Assembly: GCA_900753315.1 (NCBI GenBank)
Contig: CAADYP010000015.1
Coordinates: forward strand, 8,592-72,591
Direction of reading: 5' to 3'
Length of the DNA stretch: 64,000 nt
Source of the DNA: Clostridia bacterium
GTDB lineage: Bacteria > Bacillota > Clostridia > Christensenellales > UBA1242
The position numbers were made by a program, and so were the translations under genes. Numbering within the stretch: the first letter of the stretch is position 1; each line of letters opens with the position of its first letter. Shown piece by piece: positions 1 through 16,793 of this stretch. The notes beneath the pieces were generated by a model. The model saw nothing but the letters and a program-made list of their open reading frames with translations, did not search any database and was not told where the DNA came from.

Positions 1-71
1 GCACTGAGCCGCACTCGAAATGCGGTTGTCGAGAAATCGGCACGTGGGTTCAAATCCCACCGTCTCCGCCA
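1..71 (+). tRNA. tRNA-Ser(CGA), 3' portion (5' end lies outside the window)
   Basis: Anticodon stem ccgca/tgcgg (9-13/21-25) with loop CTCGAAA gives anticodon CGA. Long variable arm (26-43). T arm gtggg-ttcaaat-cccac (44-60). Acceptor 3' strand, G discriminator and encoded CCA end at 71. Confidence 0.85.
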
Positions 72-1681
72 CGGAAAGGCTGTTGGACAGAAATGTTCAT
101 TTCAGCCTTTTTTTCTTTGAAAATTTTGCTATTTTCATCAAAATGGGAGTCCGAGTTTTCGGCACTCCCATTTTTTGTGTTTCCACTATCAAAATTATTA
201 TCTCTTTTCTCAAATTTTTCTAAAATTCTTTTAGCGTAAAGTTCATCATTATTTATAGAAAGTTCATTGTCTGGGCCTTTGTTTCCGCACATTATCACAA
301 TAACTTTATCGTTGAATAAAATCACCTTTTTAATAAAGCGGTTGAAAAATTCATTGCGTTCAAACACATCATCATAATCCTTGCAGGCAAACAGTGATAT
401 AAAATTCTTCACATCTTCAAATTCAAGAGGCCTATCAATTTTTGTTTTTTCTTCAGCAATTTTAAGTTGAATGTCCGCCCTGTCGTTTTCAAGTTTGTAA
501 AGTTCTTCACGAATGGCAAGCGAAACTATGCCCTGTTCCATATTTTTAACAAGGCTGTTAATTTTGCTATTTATTTGTTTTAACTCTTTTTCAAGACATT
601 TCAGCACAATGTTGTTAGAAAGTTCTTCGTTAAACTTGTCCACAACCATGTGCGCAATTTCTTCAATTTTGGTTGGTGTTAAAATATACTGCTTGGTTTT
701 GTCAATAATTAGTTGTTCAAGTTCTTGCTTGCGATAATTTCTAAGTTCGCACGCCTTACCCTCAACCTTTTTAGTATGGCACTTGTAATATTTGTATCTC
801 GTTCCCATATGGCTAGAACCGGCTTCGGCAATAACACTTTTACCGCAGTAACCGCAGAAGATTTTGCCCGTTAAAAAGTATGGGTCGTATTTGTCTTTTT
901 TGTAGTTTCGGCGAAATTCCACCATCATGCCGTTCACAACTTTCCATAATTTTTCTTCAATTATCTGCGGAATAACATCGGTAAAAATTTCTCCACCAAA
1001 CTTTTCAATGCCCATATATCTTGGGTTGTGTAACATCTTGGCAATCATGTTGCCGTTCCACTTGTTGCCACTGTTAGACCTAGAGCCTTGTGCGTTTAAG
1101 TGGTCGGCAATCTCAGTTGCCTTTTCGCCTTTTGAATATTCGTCAAAGACCTGTCTAACAAACTTTGCGTGTTCTTCGTCAATCACCCATTTTCTACCTT
1201 CAATTTTGTAACCATAGGTAACTTGCCCGCCTGTGAAATTGCCTTTCATTAAACTTTCGCGAACGCCGCGCTTAACTTTTTGGCTAAGCTCGGCAGAATA
1301 ATATTCAGCCATACCTTCAAGCACGCTTTCCATCAAAATTCCACTTGCATCGTCTGAAATATTTTCTCTTGCCGACAGCACACGCACACCATTTTTCTTT
1401 AACTTCATTTTGTAGTTAGCACTGTCATATCTATTTCTTGCAAACCTGTCCAATTGATAAACTAGCACAAACTCAAACTCTTTTTTCTTGCTGTCCTCAA
1501 TCATTTTTAGGAACGCCGGTCGCCTGTCTGTTGTTCCCGAAAGTGCACGGTCAATATATTCGTGTACAACCACATAATCGTTTCGTTCGGCATACTCGTG
1601 GCAAACTCTAAGTTGCCCTTCAATTGATTGCTCTGTTTGCCTGTCGCTTGAATATCTAGCATAGATTACAATTTTTTTCAT
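50..1681 (-). CDS. Large serine recombinase (integrase)
   Basis: N-terminal resolvase catalytic motif IYARYSSDRQ and a central recombinase domain. Cys cluster CGYCG...YYKCH suggests a zinc ribbon, followed by a coiled-coil-like tail. AGGAG RBS lies upstream of the ATG at 1681. The last ~25 codons run through the tRNA terminator into the tRNA 3' end. Confidence 0.85.
   Translation of the reverse strand: MKKIVIYARYSSDRQTEQSIEGQLRVCHEYAERNDYVVVHEYIDRALSGTTDRRPAFLKMIEDSKKKEFEFVLVYQLDRFARNRYDSANYKMKLKKNGVRVLSARENISDDASGILMESVLEGMAEYYSAELSQKVKRGVRESLMKGNFTGGQVTYGYKIEGRKWVIDEEHAKFVRQVFDEYSKGEKATEIADHLNAQGSRSNSGNKWNGNMIAKMLHNPRYMGIEKFGGEIFTDVIPQIIEEKLWKVVNGMMVEFRRNYKKDKYDPYFLTGKIFCGYCGKSVIAEAGSSHMGTRYKYYKCHTKKVEGKACELRNYRKQELEQLIIDKTKQYILTPTKIEEIAHMVVDKFNEELSNNIVLKCLEKELKQINSKINSLVKNMEQGIVSLAIREELYKLENDRADIQLKIAEEKTKIDRPLEFEDVKNFISLFACKDYDDVFERNEFFNRFIKKVILFNDKVIVIMCGNKGPDNELSINNDELYAKRILEKFEKRDNNFDSGNTKNGSAENSDSHFDENSKIFKEKKAEMNISVQQPFRGGDGGI
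75..116 (+). terminator. Intrinsic terminator after tRNA-Ser
   Basis: Stem aaaggctg (75-82) pairs with cagccttt (103-110) and is followed by a T-run to 116. The loop is long (20 nt). Confidence 0.55.
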
Positions 1682-1780
1682 AATTACTCCTTAGGTTAAT
1701 TTTTCGCTCTTTCAAGTTTTTTTCAACACAAACACATACCACAAAAATTTTCACAAGTCCAGCACAAACTAGAAAGTTTT

Positions 1781-1999
1781 TCAAACTTTTTGTTGTCCAG
1801 TTTCTCGCCATGAAAACACGCTCCTTGGGGTTGCATTTTTGAAATCAACGCCTCGCTTTATGCTTAACAATAATTCTGCCACCAACTTGCTTACTGCTTC
1901 TTCATAAGTCTTTTCGTTTATCTCAATTTCAGGCTGGTTTACAATCTCTTTTGTAACTCTATCTATTATCAAAACATTCTTTAAATTTTCAATATTCAT
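1781..1999 (-). CDS. Small hypothetical protein upstream of the integrase (possible directionality factor; speculative)
   Basis: The track ORF starts at a GTG. An internal ATG at 1999 has a GAGGAGA RBS. No recognisable motif. Confidence 0.3.
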   Translation of the reverse strand: MNIENLKNVLIIDRVTKEIVNQPEIEINEKTYEEAVSKLVAELLLSIKRGVDFKNATPRSVFSWRETGQQKV

Positions 2000-2481
2000 A
2001 ATTATTCTCCTCACTGCATTTAGAGGGGCAATGAGTTAAATATTATCTCTTTCAAAAATTTAAATTTTCGCTTTCAAAAAACGATTTAAACTAAACTGGG
2101 TTTCCCAGTTGTTGCGAAAAGCGGAGAGATGCAAATTGAGTCAATGTGCTGGCACGCACAAAATGTGTGACGGCACTAAAAGTGTCCATATCTAGCGGGT
2201 TTTAGCCACATAAAAAACAATTTGCGTCACTCCTTTTCCTGCTTAAGAAAAATTAAGCATTATTTTTTTCTGATTTCATTCTTCTTACCCATAAACACCT
2301 CCTCTATATAAGGGGTTTTATAAGTCACTTTTTGCATTGAATTTCTTTACATAAAAAAGAAAACCTCTGATTTTATCAGAGATTTCGCCATATAAATTAT
2401 TTTTAAAAATTCAATTTTATTGTCATATTTTTCAGTCACTTTTTTCTTTTATCCCAAAAAGAGAGGCAATGAGTAGTTTTG

Positions 2482-2516
2482 AAAATAAAAAGATCAACTT
2501 CATTTTGAAGTTGACC
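2482..2516 (-). terminator. Intrinsic terminator of the methyltransferase-helicase operon
   Basis: Stem tcaacttc (2494-2501) pairs with gaagttga (2507-2514). An A-run on the + strand (2484-2491) becomes a T-run on the - strand. It lies 11 nt after the stop at 2527. Confidence 0.7.
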
Positions 2517-2526
2517 TTATTGTTAC

Positions 2527-5500
2527 TTATTCAAACACTTCATCAAGCTTTTGCTCTAGTGTTCCGTCTTGGGCGAATGGTAAAGAATCAAATTGTTTTA
2601 GATTGTGTTTATCTATTTTTATATCTTTGCTAAAACCTAATATGAATGATTTTGCGATTCTATAAATAATTTCTGTTGGTGCTAAGCCGTACACTTGTTT
2701 TGCAAAAATATGACTTAATCTGTCGGCATCATTTGGATAAAGTTTTTTCATATTTGAACTTCTATAAAGCTTTTTAACAATTTCTGCAATATAAAGTCCT
2801 GATTTCATATATAGATCTATAAAAGTATGATTTGGGTCATCATAGCAACCTGGATTTTCTTTTTCAAGATTATCTACCATTTCTTTTACTACTTTCTTTG
2901 GTGTAAATATTTGATTGGTCTTTTGAGGTGGAATATAGTCAAAAATATCTTCCTTTGAGTTGTCGTCAAAGTAATTTGCTAAATCTTGTTTTTTCTTCAA
3001 AAATTCTTTTATTGAATCATTGAAAACCACTGAATCAAAAAATCCATTATAATGTTTGCTTTCGCCATTTTCATCAACATAATCAAATCCATCTCTTAAC
3101 TTTCTAAAATCATCTAGTGAAATACTTGTAACTTCTTTAAACACTTTGTTAGGAATTATTTGGTCAAAATTTTCCAAGGTAGTATTTTCATCTCCATATG
3201 CCATCAAGAATGATGGGATAGTCCTCGAAAAACCTCTTAAATGGTCACGAACATTATCCATTAAAGAATCTTTTTGTTTTTCTTTTTTATCCGTTTCAAC
3301 GACATCAACAATAGTTCTTCCTGCATTATCAATAACATTTTTAACTTCGGATTGAATAGAACTCATAAAGTTATGCTCAATTTCTTTTTTCTTTTCATCA
3401 AATTTTGTGTTAATTTCTGCAATCTTATGAACATTTCCAGTTTGTTTTGCATTTTCAAGTTCTTTTGATCGCTCATTTTCAAGTTTGTTTTTACTTATTT
3501 GATAATTGCCGTATTGTTTTTTAACAAAAGTATCTGCCGTTGTGTTTATCTTTCTAACAAGTGCTTGTTGAGTAGATTTAGATAAATCACTGCCATAATT
3601 TTCTTTCGCAGTTTTAACTAGTGTATCTGTAATATTTGTGTGAAATGCATCTAAAAGTGCATTAAGTTTTTCATCTTTTTTATGTGCGATTTCATTTTCT
3701 TTTTGAATTGTTGTAACAGTGTCGATTAAACTTTGTTCAATATCTCCATAAATCTTTTCTCCAAAAACATCATTTGCAGTTCCAATAACTTGTTCTTCTG
3801 GAATTACAACATTTCCTTCATCATCTAAATTAAGTTTTTCTTTTGTATCTTCTTTTATTCCAACAGGCTCTTTAATTGGTTCAAATTTTTGAAGAATATC
3901 CAAAACTTCCTTTGGAGCATTAAATATATTGCCCACATTTTGGAATAAGAAATTACTCATAAATCCGCGACGAACAACTTCTTTTGCATGAATTGATCTT
4001 GGTATTGATAAGACTTTTTCAGCATCAAGTTCAATCATTTCGCCATTTGGATCTTCGCCATATACAGGGAAGAAGTTAAGAAGTTCTCTTACATGTTGTT
4101 TTCTAGTATCAGAGTCGCCACGACCGTTTGCTGTGTCAGCCATAAGGTCATTTGCAAATTCTTCAACAATAGTAAGCGTTCTTGCAGGGTCAAAGTCAAA
4201 TACATAAGAATTTTGTTTTCTGTAACTTTCGCTACCATTTTTGAATAAACATGGGTTTTGTGCTCTAAAAGCCGATTGCATATACAATGCCGGACTCTTT
4301 ACATTTGAAAGCATCATAACGGCAGTCCACTCTGGAATAGTAATGCCAGTTGTAAGTTGTCCTACGGAAATAGTAATTGTTTTATCGTTGTTTTTTATTG
4401 CATCAACAACTTTATCATAAGAGTTTTTGATATTCTTATCAAAACTTATTTCATCACAATAATTTCCTTCATTGTCTATTTTACCATCGCCAGCCGCAAG
4501 AACAATTTTGTAATCTTTGAAGACTTCATGATTTTGCAATTTTTTAGCGAGAGCCTTTGCACTGCTAACATATTTAAGTAGCCACAATGTGTGCTTTAAT
4601 TCTTTTCGTAATTCTTCTGTTGAAAATGGGAATTTTTCTTGTTTTGTTAAAGCATCAAGAAACTTATCAACTGCATCATTATGTATAAATTCACCACTTG
4701 CATTTGTATCAAAAAAGTCGTTTAAGTCCCAGCAAAATGCTTCATTTTGTCCATCATTGTCAAAGTCGGCTCCTTGTTCCACTTTATCATGAACAATGTC
4801 AGACATTTTATAAGTAAACAAATTAAGTTGTGGCAAGTTAGCATAAGGATTTTCTTCTTCGCTTGATTCATTCCATTCATGCTTTGCTTTTTGCTCATCA
4901 GCATAAGTCCAGTTATAAATTGCTTTTGGTGGAAATTTATCATTTGCAAGTGCTTTGAAAGGTGTTCCAGACAAATGCAATGTGCATCTTCTTTTTATTT
5001 GGTCAAATACCACATCAGTTTTGTAAGTATCAACTCCTTCATGTACTTCATCAATAACCAAAACATCCCATTCAAGGTCAGCAACTTCTCTAAGTTTATC
5101 AAACATACCACCAAAGTATATTGATCCTTTAAGGTCTTGAAGGGATACAAATTCTATGCAACCTTTGTGATTTGGTTCAGATATTAAATCAAGATATTTT
5201 TCTCTTGATAAAACATACTTTTTGTCTTTAAGTCCATCAACATTACTTACAAAATAATATCCCGATTCTGTTCCCATAAACTTAACATAATCATCATACC
5301 ATGAGTTTGCAATAGCAGGTCGGTTGGTTACAATAAGTATTTTGTTAATGTTAGGGAGTGCCTTACATAAATCATAAGTTGATAATGTTTTGCCAAACCT
5401 TGGCTTTGCATTCCACAAACATTCCGCTTTGTGAGAATTATCCAAAAAGTAATCTCTTGTTTGTTTAACTGCATCTTTTTGTTCTTTTCTAAGTACATAG

Positions 5501-5889
5501 GGGATAACACCTAAAGTTTGCAAAACACCCTTATCTCTTTTAAACTTGCCAAACAAAACATATGATTCATCACCAGAAATATAAAACCATTCTGGGCAAC
5601 CTTCGTTATCTGGTTTGGGGTCTTTTCTTTTAATATCGTTTTTTGCCAAATATGAATGGAACTCTTTGTCTGTAAATCTTGTCTTTCCATCAGAAAAAAT
5701 TGCGAGATCTTGCCATTCTTTTTTTGCCACAACATCTACTGTTTGTGTTTGCTCTTTTATTCTTGCATCAACATCTCTTTCTGTGTATCCTATCTTTGTC
5801 CAACCATCGTGATATACAACCCCTGGAGTGGTGTATGCATAAATCATAGGAGCAACTTTTGCAGAGGTTTGAATTTTAATTTTTGCCAT
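2527..5889 (-). CDS. T5orf172 (GIY-YIG superfamily) + SF2/SNF2-type helicase, with a C-terminal degenerate half of a gamma-class methyltransferase fold
   Basis: N-terminus MIYAY...WTKIGYT...RIKEQ...FHSYL...PEWFY matches the T5orf172 pattern. Helicase motifs: PRFGKT (I), VIDEVHEG (II), LSGTP (III), QLTTGITIPEW (V), QSAFRAQNP (VI). The last ~127 aa carry an FTPKKVVKEMV motif-X-like element and IDLYMKSGLYI in place of DPACGSGxF. The protein ends before any NPPY. RBS AGGAG. Confidence 0.75.
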   Translation of the reverse strand: MAKIKIQTSAKVAPMIYAYTTPGVVYHDGWTKIGYTERDVDARIKEQTQTVDVVAKKEWQDLAIFSDGKTRFTDKEFHSYLAKNDIKRKDPKPDNEGCPEWFYISGDESYVLFGKFKRDKGVLQTLGVIPYVLRKEQKDAVKQTRDYFLDNSHKAECLWNAKPRFGKTLSTYDLCKALPNINKILIVTNRPAIANSWYDDYVKFMGTESGYYFVSNVDGLKDKKYVLSREKYLDLISEPNHKGCIEFVSLQDLKGSIYFGGMFDKLREVADLEWDVLVIDEVHEGVDTYKTDVVFDQIKRRCTLHLSGTPFKALANDKFPPKAIYNWTYADEQKAKHEWNESSEEENPYANLPQLNLFTYKMSDIVHDKVEQGADFDNDGQNEAFCWDLNDFFDTNASGEFIHNDAVDKFLDALTKQEKFPFSTEELRKELKHTLWLLKYVSSAKALAKKLQNHEVFKDYKIVLAAGDGKIDNEGNYCDEISFDKNIKNSYDKVVDAIKNNDKTITISVGQLTTGITIPEWTAVMMLSNVKSPALYMQSAFRAQNPCLFKNGSESYRKQNSYVFDFDPARTLTIVEEFANDLMADTANGRGDSDTRKQHVRELLNFFPVYGEDPNGEMIELDAEKVLSIPRSIHAKEVVRRGFMSNFLFQNVGNIFNAPKEVLDILQKFEPIKEPVGIKEDTKEKLNLDDEGNVVIPEEQVIGTANDVFGEKIYGDIEQSLIDTVTTIQKENEIAHKKDEKLNALLDAFHTNITDTLVKTAKENYGSDLSKSTQQALVRKINTTADTFVKKQYGNYQISKNKLENERSKELENAKQTGNVHKIAEINTKFDEKKKEIEHNFMSSIQSEVKNVIDNAGRTIVDVVETDKKEKQKDSLMDNVRDHLRGFSRTIPSFLMAYGDENTTLENFDQIIPNKVFKEVTSISLDDFRKLRDGFDYVDENGESKHYNGFFDSVVFNDSIKEFLKKKQDLANYFDDNSKEDIFDYIPPQKTNQIFTPKKVVKEMVDNLEKENPGCYDDPNHTFIDLYMKSGLYIAEIVKKLYRSSNMKKLYPNDADRLSHIFAKQVYGLAPTEIIYRIAKSFILGFSKDIKIDKHNLKQFDSLPFAQDGTLEQKLDEVFE

Positions 5890-5890
5890 A

Positions 5891-7897
5891 TTATTTCATC
5901 TCCTTTACATGAGATTCAATAAAGTTAATTTCGTTTTGGTCTAGTCCATACTTTTTATATAACTGTAAATCAATTTCGTGTATGGATTTTGACCAATCTA
6001 TATCAGATTTATCTGTAAAATCTTGAAGGGGGATAAGAATAAAGGACTCTTTAGATATATTTAATGAATGTCTATTATAAAATAACAATGCTCTAAAATA
6101 TTTTGATTTAATATACTTTAAACAATTCTGTGCATCCATAAGCATATCAAATGGTCCTATTTCCAAAAATGTCTCTGTACATAAACTATCCGGTATTCCA
6201 ACAATAATTTCTGGAGGGACTGTTGAAGTTGTCATATATGCTTTTGAGAAATATAATTTATATTTGTTGATATTGCCACTATTCTTAGTAATTTTGTCTT
6301 TATCTATAAACCCAACAACTCTTTTGGCACCACCTTTTTTACCAGCTACGCCATAGATTTTTACGCAATTTGCTTTTTCACTAAAACTAATGTCCAAATC
6401 TTTATATTTTTCATGATCGTTAAACAAATCAGCAGAGAGTCCATAAGGATTTCTATATGAAACTATTTCACTAAATTGCTTTTTGCCCGAAGATTTTTTT
6501 ATAATTGATGATTGTCGATAATCCCTTATAATAGTATTTGAATATTCTGTTTTAAGATATCTTTTTGAATATATCGCTTCTTCGTCTTTTGGTTTGTATC
6601 TAAAAGTAACCAAGCCATTATAATCTTTTTTCCATACTAAATAACATACGCCACCATCAATATGAACTCCTGGAAAACATTCTGAAGCATCTTCATAATC
6701 AGCAATACTTTTTATATGTGTATCAATCATCATTTCTTGACGAAAACTTTCTAAACCTTTTCCACCTTTCATCCATCTGCTAGGAACAATTAAGGAAAAA
6801 CTATTATTAGTTATTTTTTTTGCTTCATTTATAAAAAATTGATAAATAGGTTTAGCGCTGTCCCCAGTACCACCACCATCACTTTCTTGATAAGGTGGAT
6901 TTCCTATAACAAAATCAAAGTTCATATGCTTTTCTCCTTTGAAAAATTTAATTGATCTTTTGGTCTTCCAGTTCATTATTCGCGAGTAGATTCCAGTATG
7001 CTTGCTGTTATCATTTTTTGAACAACCTAAACAAAGGGCTGTCTCTTCATCTTCAAATAATGACATTTGTCTTTTTTGTATTGGTTTGCAACTGTTTGGA
7101 ATAACATCTTTTAGTCCGTCCATTTGCCATATATTCCAAGAAAGTATTTTTGCAACTTCTATCAAATACTCTTTAATAGGGAACAGTTTAAATTTTGCAA
7201 CATAATAATCTATAAATGTGAATAGCAAATTTTCTCTTGCAATAAGCAAACTATCACCTTGCCACTCATAACCGAAAGTTGATTTGAATGCAACAAGTGT
7301 CCAGAGATACCAATCTTGCTCAGAATTGCAATTTTCATTTATTACTCTTAACTTTCTATCTAAAGCACCGATTCTGCTGTTTACATCTATCCATTGGCCA
7401 GTGCTTGTATCATAACGGCTGGCGAGAAAGGGAGCCTCCCCACATGAAATTTCCAGCACTTTTAGTTTTACAAAATCTTGCCAAGTTTTATCTTTTTCAT
7501 TTGTAAAAAATATTTTGTTATTGTTCACTATCCATGTTTTATCTTTTGCAGTGTTAAACACGTCTTTTTTCTCAAACCACTCATCACAAAGATAATTGTT
7601 CATTTCATTGCATATCCACGAGGGTGTAAAGACTTCAGCTTTGTCTTTGATTCTTATCTTCTGTTCTTTTTGAGATTTATCTATTCGCGGTCTTATTATT
7701 TTCCCGAACCTGCCAGTAATTAGTTTTACTGTTATTGGCTCTGGGGAGTCATAAGACGCACCTTTACTTGCATAAATGTCAGTCGCCCAAATTATGTTTT
7801 TGCCAGAACTTCTATCTTTAAGCAAAATACTTAAAAGTTCAGTATCCAAGCACTTAATATAATTTTCTCGTATATCAATATCTGGTTGTTCTGACAT
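5891..7897 (-). CDS. N6-adenine DNA methyltransferase (Eco57I-like, gamma class) with a C-terminal target-recognition region
   Basis: Motif X EVFTPSWICNEM, motif I VLEISCGEAPFL, motif IV FVIGNPPYQ. About 340 aa follow NPPY. Likely start is the ATG at 7897 (AAGAGGAGA RBS), not the GTG at 7915. The stop is 1 nt from the helicase ATG. Confidence 0.8.
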   Translation of the reverse strand: MSEQPDIDIRENYIKCLDTELLSILLKDRSSGKNIIWATDIYASKGASYDSPEPITVKLITGRFGKIIRPRIDKSQKEQKIRIKDKAEVFTPSWICNEMNNYLCDEWFEKKDVFNTAKDKTWIVNNNKIFFTNEKDKTWQDFVKLKVLEISCGEAPFLASRYDTSTGQWIDVNSRIGALDRKLRVINENCNSEQDWYLWTLVAFKSTFGYEWQGDSLLIARENLLFTFIDYYVAKFKLFPIKEYLIEVAKILSWNIWQMDGLKDVIPNSCKPIQKRQMSLFEDEETALCLGCSKNDNSKHTGIYSRIMNWKTKRSIKFFKGEKHMNFDFVIGNPPYQESDGGGTGDSAKPIYQFFINEAKKITNNSFSLIVPSRWMKGGKGLESFRQEMMIDTHIKSIADYEDASECFPGVHIDGGVCYLVWKKDYNGLVTFRYKPKDEEAIYSKRYLKTEYSNTIIRDYRQSSIIKKSSGKKQFSEIVSYRNPYGLSADLFNDHEKYKDLDISFSEKANCVKIYGVAGKKGGAKRVVGFIDKDKITKNSGNINKYKLYFSKAYMTTSTVPPEIIVGIPDSLCTETFLEIGPFDMLMDAQNCLKYIKSKYFRALLFYNRHSLNISKESFILIPLQDFTDKSDIDWSKSIHEIDLQLYKKYGLDQNEINFIESHVKEMK

Positions 7898-7930
7898 AAA
7901 TCTCCTCTTAGGCACAACCCCAAGAAAAGA

Positions 7931-7955
7931 TTTTTGTCTAAAAAGGTGTACCTTT
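7931..7955. repeat. Left inverted repeat of a putative invertible element
   Basis: tttttgtctaaaaaggtgtaccttt. Its reverse complement matches 8118-8142 at 23 of 25 positions. The arm is itself an imperfect dyad around GGTGTACC. Confidence 0.8.
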
Positions 7956-8117
7956 GTGGATTTTTGGAAAAATATAGAGAAATCTATTGTTAGTTCATTT
8001 ATTAAGAAAAAATTTTGTTTTTCGTATGGAATTTATGAAAAAATATGATATAATGACTTTACAAAGAATGAAATAAGAGTTAAATACACAACGACTTCAT
8101 AAAAAGTTGGAGTGTAT
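7956..8117. promoter_or_regulatory. Invertible segment carrying an extended -10 promoter, currently pointing to the + strand
   Basis: TGaTATAAT at 8046-8054 on the + strand. The segment is flanked by the 25-bp inverted repeats, 34 nt from the methyltransferase start on one side. A Hin-type invertase gene lies on the other side. Confidence 0.55.
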
Positions 8118-8142
8118 AAAGGTACACCTTTTTGGACAGAAA
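8118..8142. repeat. Right inverted repeat of a putative invertible element
   Basis: aaaggtacacctttttggacagaaa, the partner of 7931-7955. Confidence 0.8.
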
Positions 8143-8144
8143 AA

Positions 8145-8176
8145 GGCTCCCGCTTTTTGAGTGGGAGTCTTTTTTG
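8145..8176 (+). terminator. Intrinsic terminator immediately outside the right inverted repeat
   Basis: Stem 8145-8153 pairs with 8061-style partner 8161-8169 (ggctcccgc / gtgggagtc, with G-U pairs). Loop is tttttga, followed by a T-run at 8170-8176. The preceding A-run makes it potentially bidirectional. Confidence 0.6.
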
Positions 8177-8350
8177 TTTGGTATAATCTATGTGATGTTA
8201 AAATTTAAACAAGTCAAATTTTAAATTGCTAAATGCAATTCCACAATAAATTGCGACATCACAGATTGAATGAACATCAGTTTTGCTTGAATAGATCTTC
8301 GGTGCATTCAGACAAAACTTCCGATGATATAATTTTTTAGAGGTGATTGT

Positions 8351-8929
8351 ATGAAATATGGTTATGTGCGTGTTAGCACAAAAGAACAGAATATAGATAG
8401 ACAACTTGTGGAGATGTATGCACAAGGATTAAATGATAAAACAATTTTTATAGACAAACAAAGTGGCAAGGATTTTGAAAGGGATGAGTATCAAAAATTA
8501 AAGAAAAAACTTAAATCTGGTGATTTACTGATAATCAAAAGCATCGATAGACTAGGGCGAAACTATGATATGATTATTGAGGAATGGAGAACGCTTGTAA
8601 ACGATATGAATGTTGATATTCAAGTACTAGATATGCCACTTTTGGACACTCGAACTGAAGGTAAAAACTTAGTTGGAAAATTTATAAGTGATATAGTTTT
8701 ACAAATTCTATCATTTGTCGCTGAAAACGAAAGAGAAAACATAAAAAAGCGTCAGGCTGAAGGCATAAGAATTGCAAAAGAAAAAGGCAAACACCTAGGT
8801 CGCCCAAAAATAGAAATACCACCAAACTTTTCACAAGTGGCAAATCAGTACAAGAAAAAAGAGATAACATTAACCGAAGCCCTGTTATCTCTTAAAATGA
8901 ATAGAAGTAGTTTTTATAAATACTTATAA
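8351..8929 (+). CDS. Small serine recombinase, Hin/Gin invertase-resolvase family
   Basis: MKYGYVRVSTKEQNIDRQ catalytic N-terminus, DRLGRN motif and a C-terminal HTH (GRPK...). 192 aa. AGAGGTGA RBS. Confidence 0.9.
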   Translation: MKYGYVRVSTKEQNIDRQLVEMYAQGLNDKTIFIDKQSGKDFERDEYQKLKKKLKSGDLLIIKSIDRLGRNYDMIIEEWRTLVNDMNVDIQVLDMPLLDTRTEGKNLVGKFISDIVLQILSFVAENERENIKKRQAEGIRIAKEKGKHLGRPKIEIPPNFSQVANQYKKKEITLTEALLSLKMNRSSFYKYL

Positions 8930-9388
8930 GGATTTATACACATAAATTTCATTGTAAATAAATTTTAAAAAATTATAAAACCAAACTTAATAGAATATTC
9001 TGATTATAACTACTTATGACGCAAGTGTTGGCGTTAGTCCCGCCATTAGGGAGTAATCCGAACTTTTTAGTTTAGATTGCTCTTTTTTATTGCTTATTTT
9101 TAATGTGGCAGTCTTATTTGGTTTGAGTTTCTATAAAAATAATTTTCCTCTTTTTATCATTTTTTAATTATTAAAACTGCCATGCACTTTCTTGATTTTT
9201 TGAATTTATTTATGTAAAATAAGAATATGAAAAGGAACAAACATGAAAAATTATTATAATGTCGTTATTTTTCACTATTTTCTCCGTAAATATGTTAGTT
9301 AACATATTTTCATTATTACAAATTAAATTTTAAATTCAAAACGATTTTACAAAAAATCACTCCTGGGCAATAATAATTTATTTGTTAT

Positions 9389-9512
9389 ATCTATAATGTA
9401 ATATAAATATGCTATTTCAAAATTTTATTTAGAAGCCATTACGCCATTTTAACATATCGGTGATTGATTAAATAAATTTGCAAAACAAAAATTGCCGATA
9501 ACGGCAATTTTT
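9389..9512. repeat. Direct repeat copy A (~125 bp), ending in a hairpin terminator
   Basis: Aligns by eye with 16627-16750: 22/24 in the first block and 57/73 in the last block. Contains attacgccatttt and the hairpin attgccgataacggcaat flanked by A- and T-runs. Confidence 0.7.
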
Positions 9513-9623
9513 ATAAATAATTTACTTTAATCAAAGATTGTTGATTGTACTTCTTTTAATGATTTGTTTTGTTATTTTATTTATTCATAGGTGTATAATT
9601 AATTATTCGATTTATAAATTTAG

Positions 9624-11342
9624 TTAATAGGAAAATGCCGGATTTAAACCATTATCTATATTTACATACTGATCTGAACTTAAATTTAATTTAATGGGAT
9701 CTAGCGCCCCTACTATTATCATTTGCATTTCATTTTTTTCAACAAAATCTTTCATACAATCAATAATTTCGTTTGTCGGTTCTTTTTCGTCTACAAATTC
9801 TTGAACTACAGCATCAACACAAATATATTGTGCAAATGGCATGCCATTGAAATTATTTTTGATAAACACACACATTGCCATATAAGTTGCCAGTTGCCAC
9901 AAAGTCATCCTCGCTTTACTACCAGGTACATACGCAACTTCCACACTATTTCCATCATCATCGCGTTTAACTTCTATAGCTGATACAGATACTTTTGCAG
10001 GATTAAATCTTAGTTGAAAACTTTCTTTTTGCAAATCTTTTTTTACAAATTCCAATTTATCAAACTTTTTGTATATATTAGTAAGCAAAACATTGAAACT
10101 ATTTAGCGTTTTTTGATTAAAGCCATTACTTAACGTGTTAATGGTCTTATTGTTTTCTTGAATTGTTTTCTCTTTTTCTTTTATTTTCTCTTCTAAATTA
10201 TCTGCCCTATAATTTTGGAATGCATTATCTAAAATATTTACAATTTTCATTTTATCATCGTAAGAATATTTATCCAATCCTCTATTTATTTGGCCGATTT
10301 GCTTATCGATACCTGCTTTCCTCAATTTCAAATTCTCCAAACTTTTTTTATAATCTTTACCGTTCAAAAATAAAATGTCCTGTTTGTTTCTTAAAATATC
10401 TTGCTTCAAAATATTTACAACTTCTTTGTTGTCATCATTTTTAATTAAAATGCCGGAAAGCATTTCTAAAAGTTTGTTTGAATTATCAAGATCCTTCGTC
10501 TCATATTTGGACTGTTCTTCCAAAAACATTTGGTACTTAATTTCTTCAGCCAAAAGTTGGGAAGCTTTAATTAAATAAAGTAAATCTTTATTTTTGACTT
10601 CTTCCTTTTTAAGTGACAAGGTCTTTTGATATTCTTTAAACCGTTCTTTTAACTTCAAAATACTATCAGTGTTATTTAATGATAATTTCGACATATTTTC
10701 GCGAATAATTTTTTCACAATATATAGAACCATCATTAGATTGTCTTAACTCTTTAATCTCTTTTTCAAGTCTTGCATTCTCTGTTTTCAGTTTTGTTATT
10801 CGTAATACATTTTCTTTGTTAAAAATATATAACATTATTGATTTTATATTCAATAATTCTCCAATTTCCTTTGATTTTGGAAAAACATTGGTTATATCTG
10901 CAATACCGCTTTCAGGTAAATAATTGAACAAACTCAATGATCTATAGCTTATATTTTTCCCTGTTAATGCCTTATAATCATCAAGAACATCGTAATTATC
11001 TGCTATAATGAAACTTAAAATCTTCTCTTTATATTCCTCTATATTAATAACTCTAATGTATCTCTGATCTTCATCACTTAATTTATAAAAAAAGTTTTTT
11101 TCATCTCTACATAGCCACAGACATCTTTTATCTATTTCCATCCTTAGTTCGATTGAGTTTACACCCCTCATTGCTTGTTTGTTTGCATAATTATATTCAG
11201 AGTCACCCATCATAAAGTCAATTACATCCAAGAAAACAGTTTTACCCCTATCGTGGCGGCCATAAATATAGGAAAAATTATTCAATAAGATTTCCCTGTC
11301 ACCTTTATTCGTTTTCAAAATCAACTTAGAAAGTTTAAACAC
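9624..11342 (-). CDS. lmuB: LmuB-like SMC/ABC-type ATPase (DUF3732-like) of a Lamassu system
   Basis: N-terminal NFSYIYGRHDRGKTVFLDVIDFMMGDS is a Walker A in DUF3732-like context. A long central coiled-coil-like K/E/L-rich region follows. The C-terminal YICVDAVVQEF is Walker-B-like. The GTG start overlaps the lmuC stop by 8 nt and has a GGAGGTG RBS. Confidence 0.7.
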   Translation of the reverse strand: MFKLSKLILKTNKGDREILLNNFSYIYGRHDRGKTVFLDVIDFMMGDSEYNYANKQAMRGVNSIELRMEIDKRCLWLCRDEKNFFYKLSDEDQRYIRVINIEEYKEKILSFIIADNYDVLDDYKALTGKNISYRSLSLFNYLPESGIADITNVFPKSKEIGELLNIKSIMLYIFNKENVLRITKLKTENARLEKEIKELRQSNDGSIYCEKIIRENMSKLSLNNTDSILKLKERFKEYQKTLSLKKEEVKNKDLLYLIKASQLLAEEIKYQMFLEEQSKYETKDLDNSNKLLEMLSGILIKNDDNKEVVNILKQDILRNKQDILFLNGKDYKKSLENLKLRKAGIDKQIGQINRGLDKYSYDDKMKIVNILDNAFQNYRADNLEEKIKEKEKTIQENNKTINTLSNGFNQKTLNSFNVLLTNIYKKFDKLEFVKKDLQKESFQLRFNPAKVSVSAIEVKRDDDGNSVEVAYVPGSKARMTLWQLATYMAMCVFIKNNFNGMPFAQYICVDAVVQEFVDEKEPTNEIIDCMKDFVEKNEMQMIIVGALDPIKLNLSSDQYVNIDNGLNPAFSY

Positions 11343-11757
11343 AATTAGTCACCTCCGATAAAAATGATTTAAGTCCCAAACTCTTAATTTCATCAATAAA
11401 AATTTTTATTGAATTTTTCTCTAGTCGCTGATCTTTTACAAATATTACACTTTTATCTATTAATTCAATATCCTGGCCTTTAATTTTTACGATATTATTC
11501 TCCAACAAAATATTCATACTCTCTATGGCTTCTAGTAATTTTTCATAAGAAAATGCATTCCCCTTATTTAGTTCACTAAAATAGAAACTTATTACATCAT
11601 TTCTCTTAGTAGTAGAGCAATCAATATCTCTACAATAAATTAAACATATTGTACTGTAAATTATTTTACTCAACGATTTCAATTCAAAATTCTTTAATAA
11701 ATATAAATAAATGTTTATATAATTTGCGTAAGTTAACGACTTGCTAATTTTTATCAT
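11335..11757 (-). CDS. lmuC: LmuC-like small middle component
   Basis: 140-aa ORF sandwiched between lmuA and lmuB and overlapping both (14 nt and 8 nt). The call rests on position and size, not on motifs. Confidence 0.5.
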   Translation of the reverse strand: MIKISKSLTYANYINIYLYLLKNFELKSLSKIIYSTICLIYCRDIDCSTTKRNDVISFYFSELNKGNAFSYEKLLEAIESMNILLENNIVKIKGQDIELIDKSVIFVKDQRLEKNSIKIFIDEIKSLGLKSFLSEVTNCV

Positions 11758-12895
11758 CTATATCACCCCACTTAATTCTTGTATTATCATCAACCTCCTG
11801 GCTCGTCATATAAATATAACAACCTTTTTGTAAAAAAACACTTTCTCCCGCCTGTGAAATTATTTTGCTCTTAATGGGTGTTTGCGTGGTTGTGAAATAA
11901 ATATTCTTTGGGCTTTTTTCTTTACCGTAAAAATCCAATTTGTCTAAAGCATCTCGATAATTATTTTTAGCTTCCTCATGAGTAGACAACACTTTATTTA
12001 TATCTTTTTCTTTATAAAAATCTATTAATCTTCTATAAAACAACTCTCTCAACACATCTTCATATATTTGTTCATCTGATCTCTCCGCCAATCTTAATTG
12101 CTTGACTTCTAATTTATCTTCACTTAAAATTGATTCTATTTGTCTTTCTACCTTATTTTTATTTCTAAACTCAATAAAATCAGGGTCAAAGATTTCATTA
12201 CCATATTTCTGACATGCTAAGATCAAATATTTTGTAAAATCAACGTTTGAAATACTGTATCCCCATCTAGATTCTATGCTTGCAACCATTTCATTCGTTA
12301 TTTTTTGTTTGACAAAATCAAACCTTTCTTTCCTTGGAACAATTAAATCTTTATTAATATCTACGCAAAATCTACTATCAAAAATCTCATATTGTTCTCT
12401 TTTAATAGTTTCGATTGAATAATTATCAATTACATCATAATTATCTATTATATGATTAAGAATGTTATCTACGAAAGATGAATCTAAATCTTTTATTTTA
12501 TTATATGCCTTACGCTTAATTGTCCTTATATCCGCATCTTTAGCCTCTCCGATATGTTTTTTGAGTGCAGTAAAAAAGTTGGAATCAACATCAAAAGAAA
12601 CTTCTTTCTCCGAAATTAATTGATATCTATATTCTTTGTAAGAATCAAATGCAGTTTCTATTAACCAATTGTCAAAGATTTTATAAAAATCATCATCATC
12701 CAAATCCCCAGTTTTAACTTGAATAAGTATCTTTTTGTATGAGATAGACGCTAATTTATATTCAATATTTACATCATCAGATACTTCAAATCCTATATTA
12801 AAATCGCCGTTATTTATATTTTTTAGTAAGAATTTATAAAAAAACTCTTGTTGATATAGAAAACCTCTATAACTCGTAACTCCTGCTCCTGGCAT
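11744..12895 (-). CDS. lmuA: LmuA-like effector with an N-terminal Cap4/DUF4297-type nuclease domain
   Basis: N-terminus GAGVTSYRGFLYQQEFFYKFLL...FEVSDDVNIEY...IQVKTG fits the DUF4297 pattern (G-F-x-YQ, E-x-D, Q-x-K). GAGGTG RBS. Confidence 0.65.
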   Translation of the reverse strand: MPGAGVTSYRGFLYQQEFFYKFLLKNINNGDFNIGFEVSDDVNIEYKLASISYKKILIQVKTGDLDDDDFYKIFDNWLIETAFDSYKEYRYQLISEKEVSFDVDSNFFTALKKHIGEAKDADIRTIKRKAYNKIKDLDSSFVDNILNHIIDNYDVIDNYSIETIKREQYEIFDSRFCVDINKDLIVPRKERFDFVKQKITNEMVASIESRWGYSISNVDFTKYLILACQKYGNEIFDPDFIEFRNKNKVERQIESILSEDKLEVKQLRLAERSDEQIYEDVLRELFYRRLIDFYKEKDINKVLSTHEEAKNNYRDALDKLDFYGKEKSPKNIYFTTTQTPIKSKIISQAGESVFLQKGCYIYMTSQEVDDNTRIKWGDIDDKN

Positions 12896-12977
12896 TTTTC
12901 ACCTCTAAATCCATTATAACATAATTTTAACTTATCTGTATCAAATAAATTTAAATATTATTTAAATACTTTAGCGA

Positions 12978-15737: not shown

Positions 15738-15853
15738 TATAACAAATATTTATTTTTCTTACTATGGTTTCGACAAAAATCGCATAAAAAATTTTTTATT
15801 TATTTGTGATAGAAATTCATGTATATTGTGCTATAATATTTTTGAGGTTGAAT

Positions 15854-16570
15854 ATGTATTTAAAATTAAAAAATATATTAAATGAAATTTGCAAAAAGAT
15901 GCCTTATGTGATTTTTTATCACATAGACAATGATGAAGATAAATCTAACAACACTTATTATCGACTGTTTTTTGATAATTTTAAAACCATTGAATTGATT
16001 TGTAATGCAATAGATATTAAGGCATACACACAAGCAGGAACTTTATTAAGATCTTTAATAGAACAAGTTTCCACTTTACAAGTGTTATTAGAAAATCCCT
16101 CTATCCTAGATGAATATATTAAATTTGCAAAATTAAAACTACATTTAATAATAGATAAGGAAACTACAACACAGGAAGTTCTTAAATTAAAAAAAGATAG
16201 CAAAACTAAATCTAGCTTTATAAATTTTTGCGATTTTGGATGGTTAGAAAAATTAGGCGAAACTAATCTTTCAATAGATACAATAATAAAAAAAGCAAAT
16301 ATGGGCTCTTTGCCCATTTGGAGAACATATTGCAATAATTTCGTACACAACTCTTTATCATTCTTGCAATTAAATAATGATGGCATCAATTATTATGTTA
16401 AAAACTTTATTTATATTTCAGCATTATTATTTGACCATTTAGTTTGTCTTTTTCATAACCTTAATGGTTTTGACTTCACTTTTGATAATATTAATTATAG
16501 GGAAATTTTTATTAAGCAATACAAATATGTTACAGAAAAACAAAAACTAAATAATGATACCTTAGTGTAA
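15854..16570 (+). CDS. Hypothetical protein (238 aa), divergent from the helicase gene
   Basis: ATG at 15854 is preceded by GAGG and a TGcTATAAT box (15829-15837). The track start at 15806 is a GTG inside the promoter. No confident motif. Confidence 0.5.
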   Translation: MYLKLKNILNEICKKMPYVIFYHIDNDEDKSNNTYYRLFFDNFKTIELICNAIDIKAYTQAGTLLRSLIEQVSTLQVLLENPSILDEYIKFAKLKLHLIIDKETTTQEVLKLKKDSKTKSSFINFCDFGWLEKLGETNLSIDTIIKKANMGSLPIWRTYCNNFVHNSLSFLQLNNDGINYYVKNFIYISALLFDHLVCLFHNLNGFDFTFDNINYREIFIKQYKYVTEKQKLNNDTLV

Positions 16571-16626
16571 GTTTAATTTACATTACTTATTTATATGTAG
16601 ATTAGCTGATTTTATTATCATAATTT

Positions 16627-16750
16627 ATCTATAATGCAATAAAAATATGCCATTTTGGCATATTTGTTTTAAAATTATTACGCCATTTTGACATGTCGGC
16701 AATTAAGTTAACTAATACACAAAATAAAAATTGCCGTTACCGGCAAATTC
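16627..16750. repeat. Direct repeat copy B (~125 bp), ending in a hairpin terminator
   Basis: Partner of 9389-9512. Contains the dyad atatgcc-atttt-ggcatat (16645-16663), attacgccattttgacatgtcgg and the hairpin ttgccgttaccggcaa. On the - strand this acts as the terminator of the nucleotidyltransferase gene. Confidence 0.7.
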
Positions 16751-16793
16751 TTATCTTGCTAAATTATCTTAAATTATATAAAAAGAGAGGTAT

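What the first reader, a model, noticed from the sequence alone, without database searches (positions are those of the whole stretch)
7897..8350. Putative inverton: a ~160-bp promoter cassette between 25-bp inverted repeats, between the R-M-like operon and a Hin-type invertase
7931-7955 and 8118-8142 are inverted repeats matching at 23 of 25 positions. Each arm is itself an imperfect dyad around GGTGTACC/GGTACACC, as expected for two-half-site crossover sites of serine invertases. The enclosed segment carries the best promoter in the region, TGaTATAAT at 8046-8054. It currently points away from the methyltransferase-helicase operon and straight into an intrinsic terminator at 8145-8176. Inversion would place it about 115 nt upstream of the methyltransferase ATG, and the left repeat lies only 34 nt from that start. 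The invertase gene (8351-8929) has its own TGgTATAAT box at 8179-8187. This suggests phase-variable ON/OFF control of a restriction/defence operon, captured here in the OFF orientation.
Basis: partly seen in the sequence, partly recalled or inferred. Interest (0 to 1): 0.7.

Follow-up and report, generated by a model that had tools for sequence, protein, structure and literature searches.

The report
Invertible promoter switch for a restriction-modification operon
A 162-bp promoter cassette next to a small serine recombinase gene is found flipped in otherwise near-identical genomes, so it is a real DNA-inversion switch that most likely turns a DNA methyltransferase/helicase (restriction-modification) operon on and off in an uncultured human-gut Clostridia bacterium.

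Summary

- **Repeats:** 7931-7955 and 8118-8142 are 23/25 inverted repeats. The best of 200 shuffles reached 21/25. Their 14-nt core occurs only twice in the 64 kb.
- **Inversion:** a public assembly (L097/L105) is 99.9% identical to the window over 17 kb, but has exactly 7956-8117 reverse-complemented. A second pair with 100% identical flanks (L100 vs L102) shows the same flip. Six independent contigs break exactly at the inner edge of the recombinase-proximal repeat.
- **Cassette:** it carries one consensus extended -10 promoter (8046-8054). In the window this promoter faces a conserved terminator (OFF). Flipped, it faces the methyltransferase-helicase operon, about 115 nt from the ATG.
- **Conservation:** the same layout (repeat, promoter, repeat, terminator, own promoter, recombinase) recurs in at least 25 gut Firmicutes genomes. 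The central dinucleotides of the two sites always match within a locus.
- **Neighbour genes:** the divergent neighbour is usually a DNA methyltransferase, drawn from at least six different Pfam families.
- **Recombinase:** it is closer to Sin and resolvases than to Hin/Gin.

This is a new member of a known kind (an inverton controlling R-M). The portable ~1-kb switch module is the most interesting aspect. Transcription, methylation and within-population switching remain untested.

The parts
7931..7955 (.). Distal inverted-repeat arm (IRL). The 26-bp imperfect dyad crossover site spans 7936-7961. The shared 16-bp core is 7940-7955. The inferred crossover dinucleotide is GT at 7948-7949.
   Evidence: The outer polymorphisms 7934 and 7939 stay in place in the flipped genome L097, which places the crossover inside the shared core. 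The central dinucleotide matches its partner site in 25/25 loci.
7956..8117 (.). Invertible 162-bp cassette between the arms. The DNA actually exchanged between the crossover points is 7950-8123.
   Evidence: It is exactly reverse-complemented in L097/L105, whose flanks are 99.75-99.98% identical to the window. Homologous cassettes occur in both orientations in other loci.
8046..8054 (+). Extended -10 promoter TGATATAAT inside the cassette. It currently points toward the recombinase side, that is, away from the methyltransferase operon.
   Evidence: TGnTATAATGA is conserved at the same cassette position in L013, L015, L019, L021, L022, L026, L028 and L029.
8084..8117 (+). Conserved leader hairpin (ATACAC...GTGTAT) downstream of the cassette promoter. 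It is part of the 5' leader in either orientation. Its function is unknown.
   Evidence: Fold. The block is conserved in the alignment.
8118..8142 (.). Recombinase-proximal inverted-repeat arm (IRR). The dyad site spans 8112-8137. The inferred crossover dinucleotide is AC at 8124-8125.
   Evidence: Six independent contigs (L007, L008, L010, L012, L014, L017) start exactly at the base equivalent to 8118.
8139..8176 (+). Intrinsic terminator directly after IRR. It would stop transcripts from the cassette promoter in the present orientation and insulate the recombinase gene.
   Evidence: Fold z = -5.5. A hairpin plus T run is present at the same place in all nine aligned loci despite sequence change.
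8179..8187 (+). The recombinase's own extended -10 promoter, TGGTATAAT.
   Evidence: It is conserved (TGGTATAAT or TGATATAAT) in all aligned loci.
8190..8335 (+). Leader insert of about 146 nt in the recombinase 5' UTR. It is present only in a subset of loci and is not part of the core switch.
   Evidence: Present in the window, L012, L017, L021 and L095; absent in L013, L015, L019, L026 and others. Fold z is only -1.8. No Rfam family matches.
8351..8929 (+). Small serine recombinase, 192 aa. The catalytic motif is YVRVSTKEQ (Ser9), there is a DRLGR motif, and the C-terminal part is helix-turn-helix-like.
   Evidence: PF00239, E = 1e-27. Translation. Nearest solved relatives are Sin, then gamma-delta/Tn3 resolvase, then Gin.
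7893..7938 (-). Fixed leader hairpin between IRL and the methyltransferase start. It sequesters the Shine-Dalgarno sequence and the AUG, and may add a translational layer of control.
   Evidence: Fold of the natural ON-state leader in L105, z = -6.2. The hairpin is retained in 10 related loci, but with only one compensatory change.
5891..7897 (-). Eco57I-family N6-adenine DNA methyltransferase, 668 aa. It is the first gene of the controlled operon.
   Evidence: PF07669, E = 2.5e-24. PADLOC MTase_II and Type IIG models match.
2527..5889 (-). ResIII helicase with an N-terminal T5orf172 (GIY-YIG-like) domain, 1120 aa. It is the second gene of the operon, separated from the methyltransferase stop by 1 nt.

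Best explanation
This is a serine-recombinase inverton that puts a restriction-modification operon under ON/OFF phase variation.

- **Recombination (inferred by analogy):** dimers of the 192-aa recombinase (8351-8929) bind the two 26-bp imperfect dyad sites (7936-7961 and 8112-8137). They synapse, cut both strands at the central GT/AC dinucleotide, rotate and religate. This inverts the intervening DNA.
- **OFF orientation (the window):** the cassette carries one strong extended -10 promoter (8046-8054). Here it fires toward the recombinase side, and the transcript of about 115 nt ends at the conserved terminator (8139-8176). The methyltransferase-helicase operon has no room for another promoter in the 33 nt between the repeat and its ATG, so it is OFF.
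- **ON orientation:** after inversion the promoter fires through the distal repeat into the methyltransferase (ATG 7897) and the helicase-nuclease gene.
- **Recombinase expression:** the recombinase is transcribed from its own promoter (8179-8187), shielded by the terminator, so switching is independent of switch state.

**Shown here:** the repeats, the natural occurrence of both orientations in near-identical genomes, the position of the crossover within the 16-bp core, conservation of every part, and matching central dinucleotides.

**Inferred:** promoter activity, the silence of the OFF state, the exact cleavage position, the switching rate, and the restriction activity of the operon.
For: - **Flip in a near-identical genome:** L097/L105 (GCA_964310015.1) matches window 1-7955 at 99.90% and 8118-17429 at 99.98%, with 7956-8117 exactly reverse-complemented. 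The junctions are those predicted.
- **Second isogenic pair:** L100 and L101 (OFF) versus L102 (ON) share an identical recombinase and 100% identical flanks.
- **Tally for homologous cassettes:** 18 OFF and 7 ON.
- **Assembly breaks:** six contigs from independent assemblies start exactly at the inner edge of the proximal repeat, as expected if both orientations are present in a sample.
- **Conserved architecture:** repeat pair, TGnTATAAT, terminator, own promoter and recombinase recur in at least 25 of 80 genomes.
- **Central dinucleotide:** it is identical at both sites in 25/25 loci while varying between loci (GT, AC, TT, AA).
- **Repeat significance:**
- **Promoter and terminator:**
- **Neighbour genes:** of 63 upstream neighbours of recombinase homologues, at least 33 are DNA methyltransferases from 6 Pfam families. 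54 of 62 neighbours are divergently oriented.
Against: - No reads, RNA or methylation data were examined. Switching within a clone and promoter-dependent expression are therefore not shown.
- All contigs that carry the window's exact recombinase and span the cassette are in the OFF orientation. The three JGI hits are also OFF.
- Weak minus-strand -10-like hexamers in the cassette (TATATT 7976-7971, TATCAT 8050-8045) could give basal operon expression in the 'OFF' state.
- The fixed leader hairpin sequesters the SD and AUG, so ON transcription may not equal strong translation.
- The one strain-level ON genome has a frameshifted methyltransferase, with the A8 tract reduced to A7.
- The operon's restriction activity is only inferred from domains. 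Neither protein has a relative among solved structures.
Confidence: 0.85

Rival explanations
1. The inversion is real, but it does not act as an ON/OFF switch of the methyltransferase operon. The operon might have basal or constitutive expression from weak promoters, with the cassette only modulating the level. Alternatively, the relevant output might be the short terminated RNA of about 115 nt made in the present orientation.
For: - There are weak minus-strand -10-like hexamers in the cassette.
- The transcribed part of the cassette, including a hairpin at 8084-8117, is better conserved than the part upstream of the -10.
- An SD-sequestering hairpin points to extra control layers.
Against: - Only 33 nt separate the distal repeat from the ATG, so no fixed promoter fits there.
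- The only consensus promoter is the invertible one.
- In almost all loci a gene starts within 6-140 nt of the distal repeat and reads away from it. This is the geometry of promoter delivery.
- The terminator next to the proximal repeat is conserved.
Confidence: 0.1
2. The two orientations are fixed strain polymorphisms left by rare historical inversions between the repeats, not programmed high-frequency phase variation.
For: Only assemblies were compared, one orientation each. No within-sample read evidence was available.
Against: - Flips are seen in three independent near-isogenic comparisons: window/L105, L100/L102, and L095 versus the broken contig L012.
- Six contigs break at exactly the repeat edge, although the longest perfect match between the two arms is 16 nt (read from the arm sequences), which should be too short to collapse the assembly graph at usual k-mer sizes (contig names show k = 127 and 141).
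- A dedicated recombinase is always adjacent.
- Matched central dinucleotides are maintained in 25/25 loci.
Confidence: 0.04
3. The repeats are res-type accessory or crossover sites of a transposon or plasmid resolvase, or a chance repeat, with no inversion function.
For: By sequence, the recombinase's nearest solved relatives are Sin and gamma-delta/Tn3 resolvases.
Against: - The sites are in inverted orientation, 176 bp apart centre to centre.
- Inversion products are observed.
- No transposase is adjacent.
- There is no match in the plasmid or phage collections.
- Chance is excluded.
Confidence: 0.01

Closest known systems
Hin/hix flagellar switch of Salmonella and the Gin/Cin/Pin invertases
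   Same: - The recombinase is a small serine recombinase (about 190 aa) encoded right next to the invertible segment.
- There are two crossover sites of about 26 bp, each an imperfect dyad around a 2-bp core, in inverted orientation.
- In Hin, the segment carries an outward-facing promoter that gives ON/OFF control of the adjacent operon.
   Different: - In Hin the recombinase gene lies inside the invertible segment. Here it lies outside.
- The segment is 162 bp rather than about 1 kb (Hin) or 3 kb (Gin).
- The sequence is closer to Sin and resolvases than to Gin.
- The Hin family needs Fis and an enhancer. That could not be tested here, and Firmicutes lack Fis (general knowledge).
- The target is an R-M operon, not flagellin or tail fibres.
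Sin and beta recombinases (Firmicutes plasmid/transposon resolvases)
   Same: - These are the nearest relatives by sequence: Sin 2r0q, E = 2.4e-31.
- The hosts are Firmicutes.
- Beta recombinase is known to catalyse inversion as well as resolution, with a chromatin protein as cofactor (general knowledge).
   Different: - Sin and beta act on res/six sites made of directly arranged subsites, to resolve multimers.
- Here two single dyad sites sit in inverted orientation around a promoter, and inversion products are observed.
- No accessory site was identified.
Bacteroides Mpi and other gut 'invertons' (invertible promoters catalogued by PhaseFinder-type surveys)
   Same: - A short IR-flanked promoter cassette gives ON/OFF control of a neighbouring operon.
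- A serine invertase (Mpi) does the inversion.
- The habitat is the gut, and the logic is bet-hedging.
   Different: - The recombinase is not an Mpi family member (53.7 bits against a cut-off of 272).
- The switch is local, with one recombinase and one cassette. Mpi is a master invertase acting on many sites.
- The hosts are Firmicutes, and the promoter is an extended -10 sigma-A type.
- The target is DNA methyltransferases or R-M systems rather than capsule or surface genes.
Phase-variable R-M systems (phasevarions): SSR-switched Type III mod genes, hsdS-shuffling Type I 'epigenetic invertons', Mycoplasma pulmonis hsd inversions
   Same: An R-M or methyltransferase system is made heterogeneous within a population. 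In the hsdS and M. pulmonis cases this is done by site-specific DNA inversion (PMC7672463, PMC11868660).
   Different: - Reviews list SSR slippage and recombination of specificity domains as the switching mechanisms (PMC11868660).
- Here the coding sequences are untouched. A separate promoter cassette is flipped by a serine recombinase, and the same module serves at least six methyltransferase families.
- Promoter exchange is mentioned only in general terms (PMC12707154; PMC10333322).

Membership tests
Inverton (recombinase-mediated invertible promoter switch) | Short DNA segment flanked by inverted repeats | tested here: met
   23/25 inverted repeat with a 162-nt spacer, beyond every one of 200 shuffles. 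The core is unique to these two places in 64 kb.
Inverton (recombinase-mediated invertible promoter switch) | Both orientations of the segment occur in nature with unchanged flanks | tested here: met
   Window vs L097/L105 (flanks 99.9% identical, inner part exactly reverse-complemented) and L100 vs L102 (flanks 100% identical).
Inverton (recombinase-mediated invertible promoter switch) | Both orientations coexist within one population (phase variation) | not testable with these tools
   There was no read access. The only evidence is indirect: six independent contigs end exactly at the inner repeat edge.
Inverton (recombinase-mediated invertible promoter switch) | The segment contains a promoter that drives a flanking gene in one orientation only | tested here: inconclusive
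   There is a consensus extended -10 at 8046-8054, conserved across homologues, and the geometry fits. Transcription was not measured.
Inverton (recombinase-mediated invertible promoter switch) | Cognate site-specific recombinase | tested here: met
   A PF00239 serine recombinase gene is adjacent in every locus. Catalysis itself was not tested.
Hin/Gin/Cin/Pin DNA-invertase family | Small serine recombinase with an N-terminal catalytic Ser and a C-terminal DNA-binding domain | tested here: met
   192 aa with YVRVS(9)TKEQ and DRLGR motifs. PF00239 covers residues 3-148.
Hin/Gin/Cin/Pin DNA-invertase family | Sequence groups with the invertases rather than the resolvases | tested here: not met
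   PDB phmmer scores: Sin 112 bits, gamma-delta/Tn3 resolvase about 67 bits, Gin 53 bits.
Hin/Gin/Cin/Pin DNA-invertase family | Fis-bound recombinational enhancer in cis | not testable with these tools
   No enhancer model is available. Fis is not expected in Firmicutes (general knowledge).
Hin/Gin/Cin/Pin DNA-invertase family | Crossover sites of about 26 bp with a 2-bp core, in inverted orientation | tested here: met
   Half-sites match 9/12 around GT/AC. The central dinucleotide matches between partner sites in 25/25 loci. The crossover is confined to the 16-bp core.
Mpi master invertase family (NCBIfam NF009949) | Score above the curated cut-off of the family model | tested here: not met
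   53.7 bits against a cut-off of 272.
Sin/beta-type resolvase with a res site | Directly arranged subsites upstream of the gene that mediate resolution (deletion) | tested here: not met
   The two sites are in inverted orientation, 176 bp apart. The observed product is an inversion.
Phase-variable restriction-modification system (phasevarion) | The switch is linked to a DNA methyltransferase or R-M operon | tested here: met
   An Eco57I-family methyltransferase plus a ResIII helicase are adjacent. At least 33 of 63 homologous loci have a methyltransferase neighbour.
Phase-variable restriction-modification system (phasevarion) | Methylation of the cognate motif is bimodal and follows switch state | not testable with these tools
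   This needs SMRT or nanopore data from a host population.

The most novel reading that the evidence does not exclude
The ~1-kb unit 7930-8929 (distal site, promoter cassette, proximal site, terminator, own promoter, Sin-like recombinase) may be a portable phase-variation module. It appears to have been coupled repeatedly to unrelated DNA methyltransferases and R-M systems across uncultured gut Clostridia, Bacilli and Mollicutes-like lineages. The partner families include Eco57I-like, N6_N4 (Type III/II beta), HsdM-like N6_Mtase, EcoRI-like, Dam/D12 and C5.

This would be a widespread class of phasevarion, not described in the literature I could search, in which whole R-M systems are switched by promoter inversion rather than by repeat slippage or hsdS shuffling. 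Because homology between loci starts exactly at the outer end of the distal site, recombination at that site between different copies may itself be what re-assorts modules and R-M cargo.
Probability: 0.4. Interest if true: 0.7.

Novelty: new member of a known kind. Interest (0 to 1): 0.55.

Why it matters
If the switch works as inferred, a large group of uncultured human-gut Firmicutes can turn complete R-M systems, and with them genome-wide methylation marks, on and off by flipping a 162-bp promoter.

- **Phage defence and DNA uptake:** OFF cells are open to DNA uptake and to phage, while ON cells are protected.
- **Metagenomic methylation binning:** methylation patterns would be bimodal within a strain.
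- **Phasevarion concept:** so far it is documented mainly for pathogens with repeat-slippage or hsdS switches.
- **Tool potential:** the module is compact (about 0.85-1 kb), self-contained and insulated by its own terminator. It could also serve as a genetic toggle in Firmicutes.
- **Experimental access:** homologous switches in cultured Holdemania strains offer a way in.

Tried and rejected
- **Plasmid and phage collections:** megablast of 7600-9000 against PLSDB plasmids and INPHARED phages gave no match. The locus is not a known plasmid or phage element.
- **IMG/VR:** a scan for the 20-nt site gave 0 hits.
- **JGI metagenomes:** a scan with a 26-mer that occurs in either orientation gave only 3 loci, all OFF. 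This added nothing on the ON state.
- **Exact methyltransferase look-up:** only 5 contigs carry it and only one place was shown, so no contigs ending at the distal repeat could be examined.
- **Rfam on 7850-8450:** only sub-threshold hits, driven by the terminator hairpin. No known riboswitch or leader is present.
- **Solved structures:** the methyltransferase and the helicase have no sequence relatives in the PDB, so the R-M type could not be pinned to a characterised enzyme.
- **Hin-family and Mpi membership:** considered and rejected on scores.
- **Resolvase res-site reading:** rejected because inversion products exist.
- **Recombinase leader insert (8190-8335):** no significant structure, z = -1.8.
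- **SD-sequestering hairpin:** it is conserved, but with too little covariation to prove an RNA function.
- **Literature gap:** Jiang et al. 2019 (PMC6543533) is not held in the library. I therefore could not check whether that catalogue already lists members of this family.
Full report

Yes. The repeat finder returns 7931-7955 / 8118-8142 as the top inverted repeat of the region: 25 nt, 92% complementary, 162 nt apart. In 200 dinucleotide-preserving shuffles of 7500-9000, the best comparable repeat was 21/25 once and otherwise 20 or less, against 23/25 observed.

The 14-nt core AAAGGTGTACCTTT, and the 20-mer with up to 3 mismatches, occur exactly twice in the 64-kb window, in inverted orientation. 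The chance expectations are 0.02 and 0.01. Each arm lies in a 26-bp imperfect dyad with 9/12 half-site matches around a non-palindromic central dinucleotide: GT at 7948-7949 and AC at 8124-8125.

- The extended -10 box TGATATAAT is at 8046-8054.
- The terminator is at 8139-8176 (fold z = -5.5).
- The second box TGGTATAAT is at 8179-8187.
- The 192-aa resolvase-domain ORF is at 8351-8929.

**2. What surrounds it?**

Two genes read leftward from 7897. The first is a 668-aa Eco57I-family N6-adenine DNA methyltransferase. The second starts one base after its stop codon and is a 1120-aa ResIII helicase with an N-terminal T5orf172 domain. PADLOC matches both to pieces of a fused Type IIG restriction-methylase model. 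The pair therefore looks like a split, ATP-dependent R-M system. Neither protein has a relative among solved structures.

Further right lies a defence-island-like run: proteins of 572 and 140 aa, a Cap4-nuclease-like protein, and a PDC-S53 helicase. A large serine recombinase sits at 50-1681. G+C is about 30%. Contigs identical to the window come from human gut metagenomes. The nearest genomes are uncultured Clostridia/Christensenellales MAGs.

**3. Does the segment invert?**

This is the decisive result, and the answer is yes.
- **Strain-level flip.** Recombinase P0003 (99% identical) lies on NCBI assembly GCA_964310015.1 (L097/L105). That contig matches window 1-7955 at 99.90% and 8118-17429 at 99.98%. 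The 162 bp between the arms is an exact reverse complement. The junctions equal the ones I predicted beforehand.
- **Crossover position.** The two positions where the arms differ (7934 and 7939) stay with their flanks. The exchange therefore happened inside the shared 16-bp core.
- **Second isogenic pair.** L100 and L101 versus L102, from different samples, have the same recombinase protein and 100% identical flanks but opposite cassette orientation.
- **Further ON locus.** L095 (95% recombinase, same leader type as the window) is also flipped.
- **Tally.** Over all loci with a homologous cassette, 18 have the promoter facing the recombinase, like the window, and 7 have it facing the divergent gene.
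- **Assembly breaks.** Six contigs from independent assemblies (L007, L008, L010, L012, L014, L017) begin exactly at the first base of the proximal repeat. The longest perfect match between the arms is 16 nt, read from the arm sequences, which should be too short to collapse an assembly graph at usual k-mer sizes (contig names show k = 127 and 141). Such breaks are what one expects when both orientations are present in a sample. That is indirect evidence of within-sample heterogeneity, not proof.

**4. Conservation and anatomy**

A scan of species-representative genomes found 254 relatives of the recombinase, and 80 were kept. In at least 25 of these, a repeat pair with the core AAAGGT-NN-ACCTTT flanks a cassette of 105-200 nt, lying 47-210 nt upstream of the recombinase gene.

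Among the closer relatives every element recurs in order:
- the distal site;
- a cassette with TGnTATAATGA and a conserved transcribed part;
- the proximal site;
- a hairpin terminator whose sequence differs but whose structure is kept;
- TGGTATAAT or TGATATAAT;
- the SD sequence and the ATG.

Read from the outside inward, the central dinucleotide is the same at both sites in 25 of 25 loci. It differs between loci: GT, AC, TT in L019, AA in L043. That is the constraint expected if a serine recombinase makes 2-nt staggered cuts there and must religate complementary overhangs. The mechanism itself is inferred from the family's established chemistry.

**5. What does it control?**

Only 33 nt separate the distal repeat from the methyltransferase ATG. 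They hold the SD sequence, and no promoter fits. The cassette has one consensus promoter, on the plus strand.
- **Window orientation (OFF).** The transcript runs through the proximal repeat into the terminator.
- **Flipped orientation (ON).** The predicted start maps about 115 nt upstream of the ATG.

In nearly all loci with the repeat pair, a gene starts 6-140 nt beyond the distal repeat and reads away from it. Across 63 upstream neighbours the Pfam hits were Eco57I 15, N6_N4_Mtase 10, N6_Mtase 6, D12 2, EcoRI_methylase 1 and C5 DNA_methylase 1 (details). One neighbour is an SNF2/ResIII helicase.

Very similar modules, with recombinases 85-90% identical, sit next to unrelated methyltransferases. 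Homology to the window begins at about 7925-7936 and ends at about 8901-8921. The unit of about 1 kb therefore behaves as a portable module. More distant homologues (62-66%) face other typical phase-variable cargo:
- surface proteins in L043 and L050;
- a nanE-like gene in cultured Holdemania strains (L063, L087).

**6. What kind of recombinase?**

It has the catalytic Ser9 context YVRVSTKEQ and the DRLGR motif. Among solved structures it is closest to Sin (E = 2.4e-31), then to gamma-delta/Tn3 resolvases (1e-17), then to Gin (4e-13). It scores far below the Mpi model cut-off. It works like a Hin-type invertase but is not a member of that family by sequence. Whether it needs an accessory protein or site is unknown.

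**7. Comparison with the literature**

Reviews and surveys describe R-M phase variation through repeat slippage and through hsdS or specificity-domain recombination (PMC11868660, PMC7672463, PMC9881135). Inverton surveys of gut bacteria highlight surface structures and hsdS-overlapping invertons (PMC11892184; PMC11602134). Control of methyltransferases by invertible promoters is mentioned only as a possibility or in general terms (PMC10333322; PMC12707154). A gut ePV study screens for invertons near R-M genes (PMC11741434).

I found no description of this recombinase/site family. However, the original PhaseFinder paper is not held, so prior listing in a catalogue cannot be excluded. The principle is known. 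The family and its modular link to many methyltransferase types appear undescribed.

**8. Caveats**

- There are no reads, RNA or methylation data.
- The ON-state strain-level genome has an A8 to A7 change in the methyltransferase that frameshifts it. This is either real slippage or an assembly error.
- The fixed leader can fold into a 15-bp hairpin covering the SD and AUG, so translation may be damped or separately controlled.
- Weak minus-strand promoter-like hexamers exist in the cassette.

**9. Verdict**

This is a genuine inverton, captured with its promoter pointing away from the R-M operon. I rate it a new member of a known kind, with interest 0.55. The portable-module reading is the more novel possibility.

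Noticed in passing
window 6807-6814 (minus strand, about codon 361 of the methyltransferase); L105 about 6957-6963: The methyltransferase gene has an A8 homopolymer tract. In the otherwise 99.9%-identical ON-orientation genome (L105) it is A7. This frameshifts the gene into ORFs of 384 and 293 aa. It could be a second, slippage-type switch, a loss-of-function mutation, or an assembly error. Other close loci with this tract (L001, L002, L004, L005, L028, L094) have A8.
   Followed up: partly
window 7893-7938 (minus strand): The fixed leader between the distal repeat and the methyltransferase ATG folds into a 15-bp hairpin that buries the Shine-Dalgarno sequence and the AUG (z = -6.2 in the natural ON-state leader). 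It is retained in 10 related loci, but with almost no covariation. It may be a translational control layer.
   Followed up: partly
window 8190-8335: There is an insert of about 146 nt in the recombinase 5' leader, between TGGTATAATCT and TTTTAGAGGTG. It is present in the window, L012, L017, L021 and L095, and absent in most other loci. It ends in a second TGATATAAT (8325-8333), only 17 nt from the ATG. It has no Rfam match and a weak fold z-score (-1.8).
   Followed up: partly
window about 6870-6887 (breakpoint inside the methyltransferase gene): Nucleotide homology between the window's methyltransferase and those of L013, L015, L026 and L095 (88-92%; L100 and L103 contigs end before the breakpoint) covers only the N-terminal 340 codons or so and stops abruptly. 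The C-terminal half, presumably the target-recognition part, differs between strains. This suggests specificity swapping.
   Followed up: no
L006 about 985-1000 (equivalent to window about 8003-8035): A natural variant carries a 33-bp deletion inside the cassette, just upstream of the -10 box, between short direct repeats (CATTTAT / AATTTAT). It removes the -35/UP region but keeps TGATATAAT.
   Followed up: no
window 9624-15737 (minus strand): A defence-island-like gene run lies downstream of the recombinase: proteins of 572 aa and 140 aa with no family, a 383-aa Cap4-nuclease-like protein, and a 919-aa SF1 helicase that matches the PADLOC candidate system PDC-S53 over its full length (1108 bits).
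   Followed up: no
window 50-1681 (minus strand): A large serine recombinase (Resolvase + Recombinase + Zn_ribbon_recom domains) lies just beyond the R-M operon. It may be the integrase of the island that carries the R-M system and the switch. The island boundaries were not mapped.
   Followed up: no
L063 2701-2913, L066 2719-2911, L087 2721-2913: Cultured Holdemania filiformis DSM 12042, Holdemania sp. Marseille-P2844 and H. massiliensis AP2 carry a homologous switch. It has perfect 20-nt repeats (AAAGGTACACCTTTATAAAA), a cassette of about 150-175 nt with TGTTATAAT, and a recombinase 61-63% identical to the window's. In L063 and L087 it sits next to a nanE-like gene rather than a methyltransferase; the L066 neighbour has no Pfam match. 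These strains are experimentally tractable relatives.
   Followed up: partly
L103 1867-2988, L104 722-1843: In one lineage, a C5 cytosine DNA methylase gene lies convergent, immediately downstream of the recombinase, in addition to the Eco57I-type methyltransferase on the switch side.
   Followed up: no
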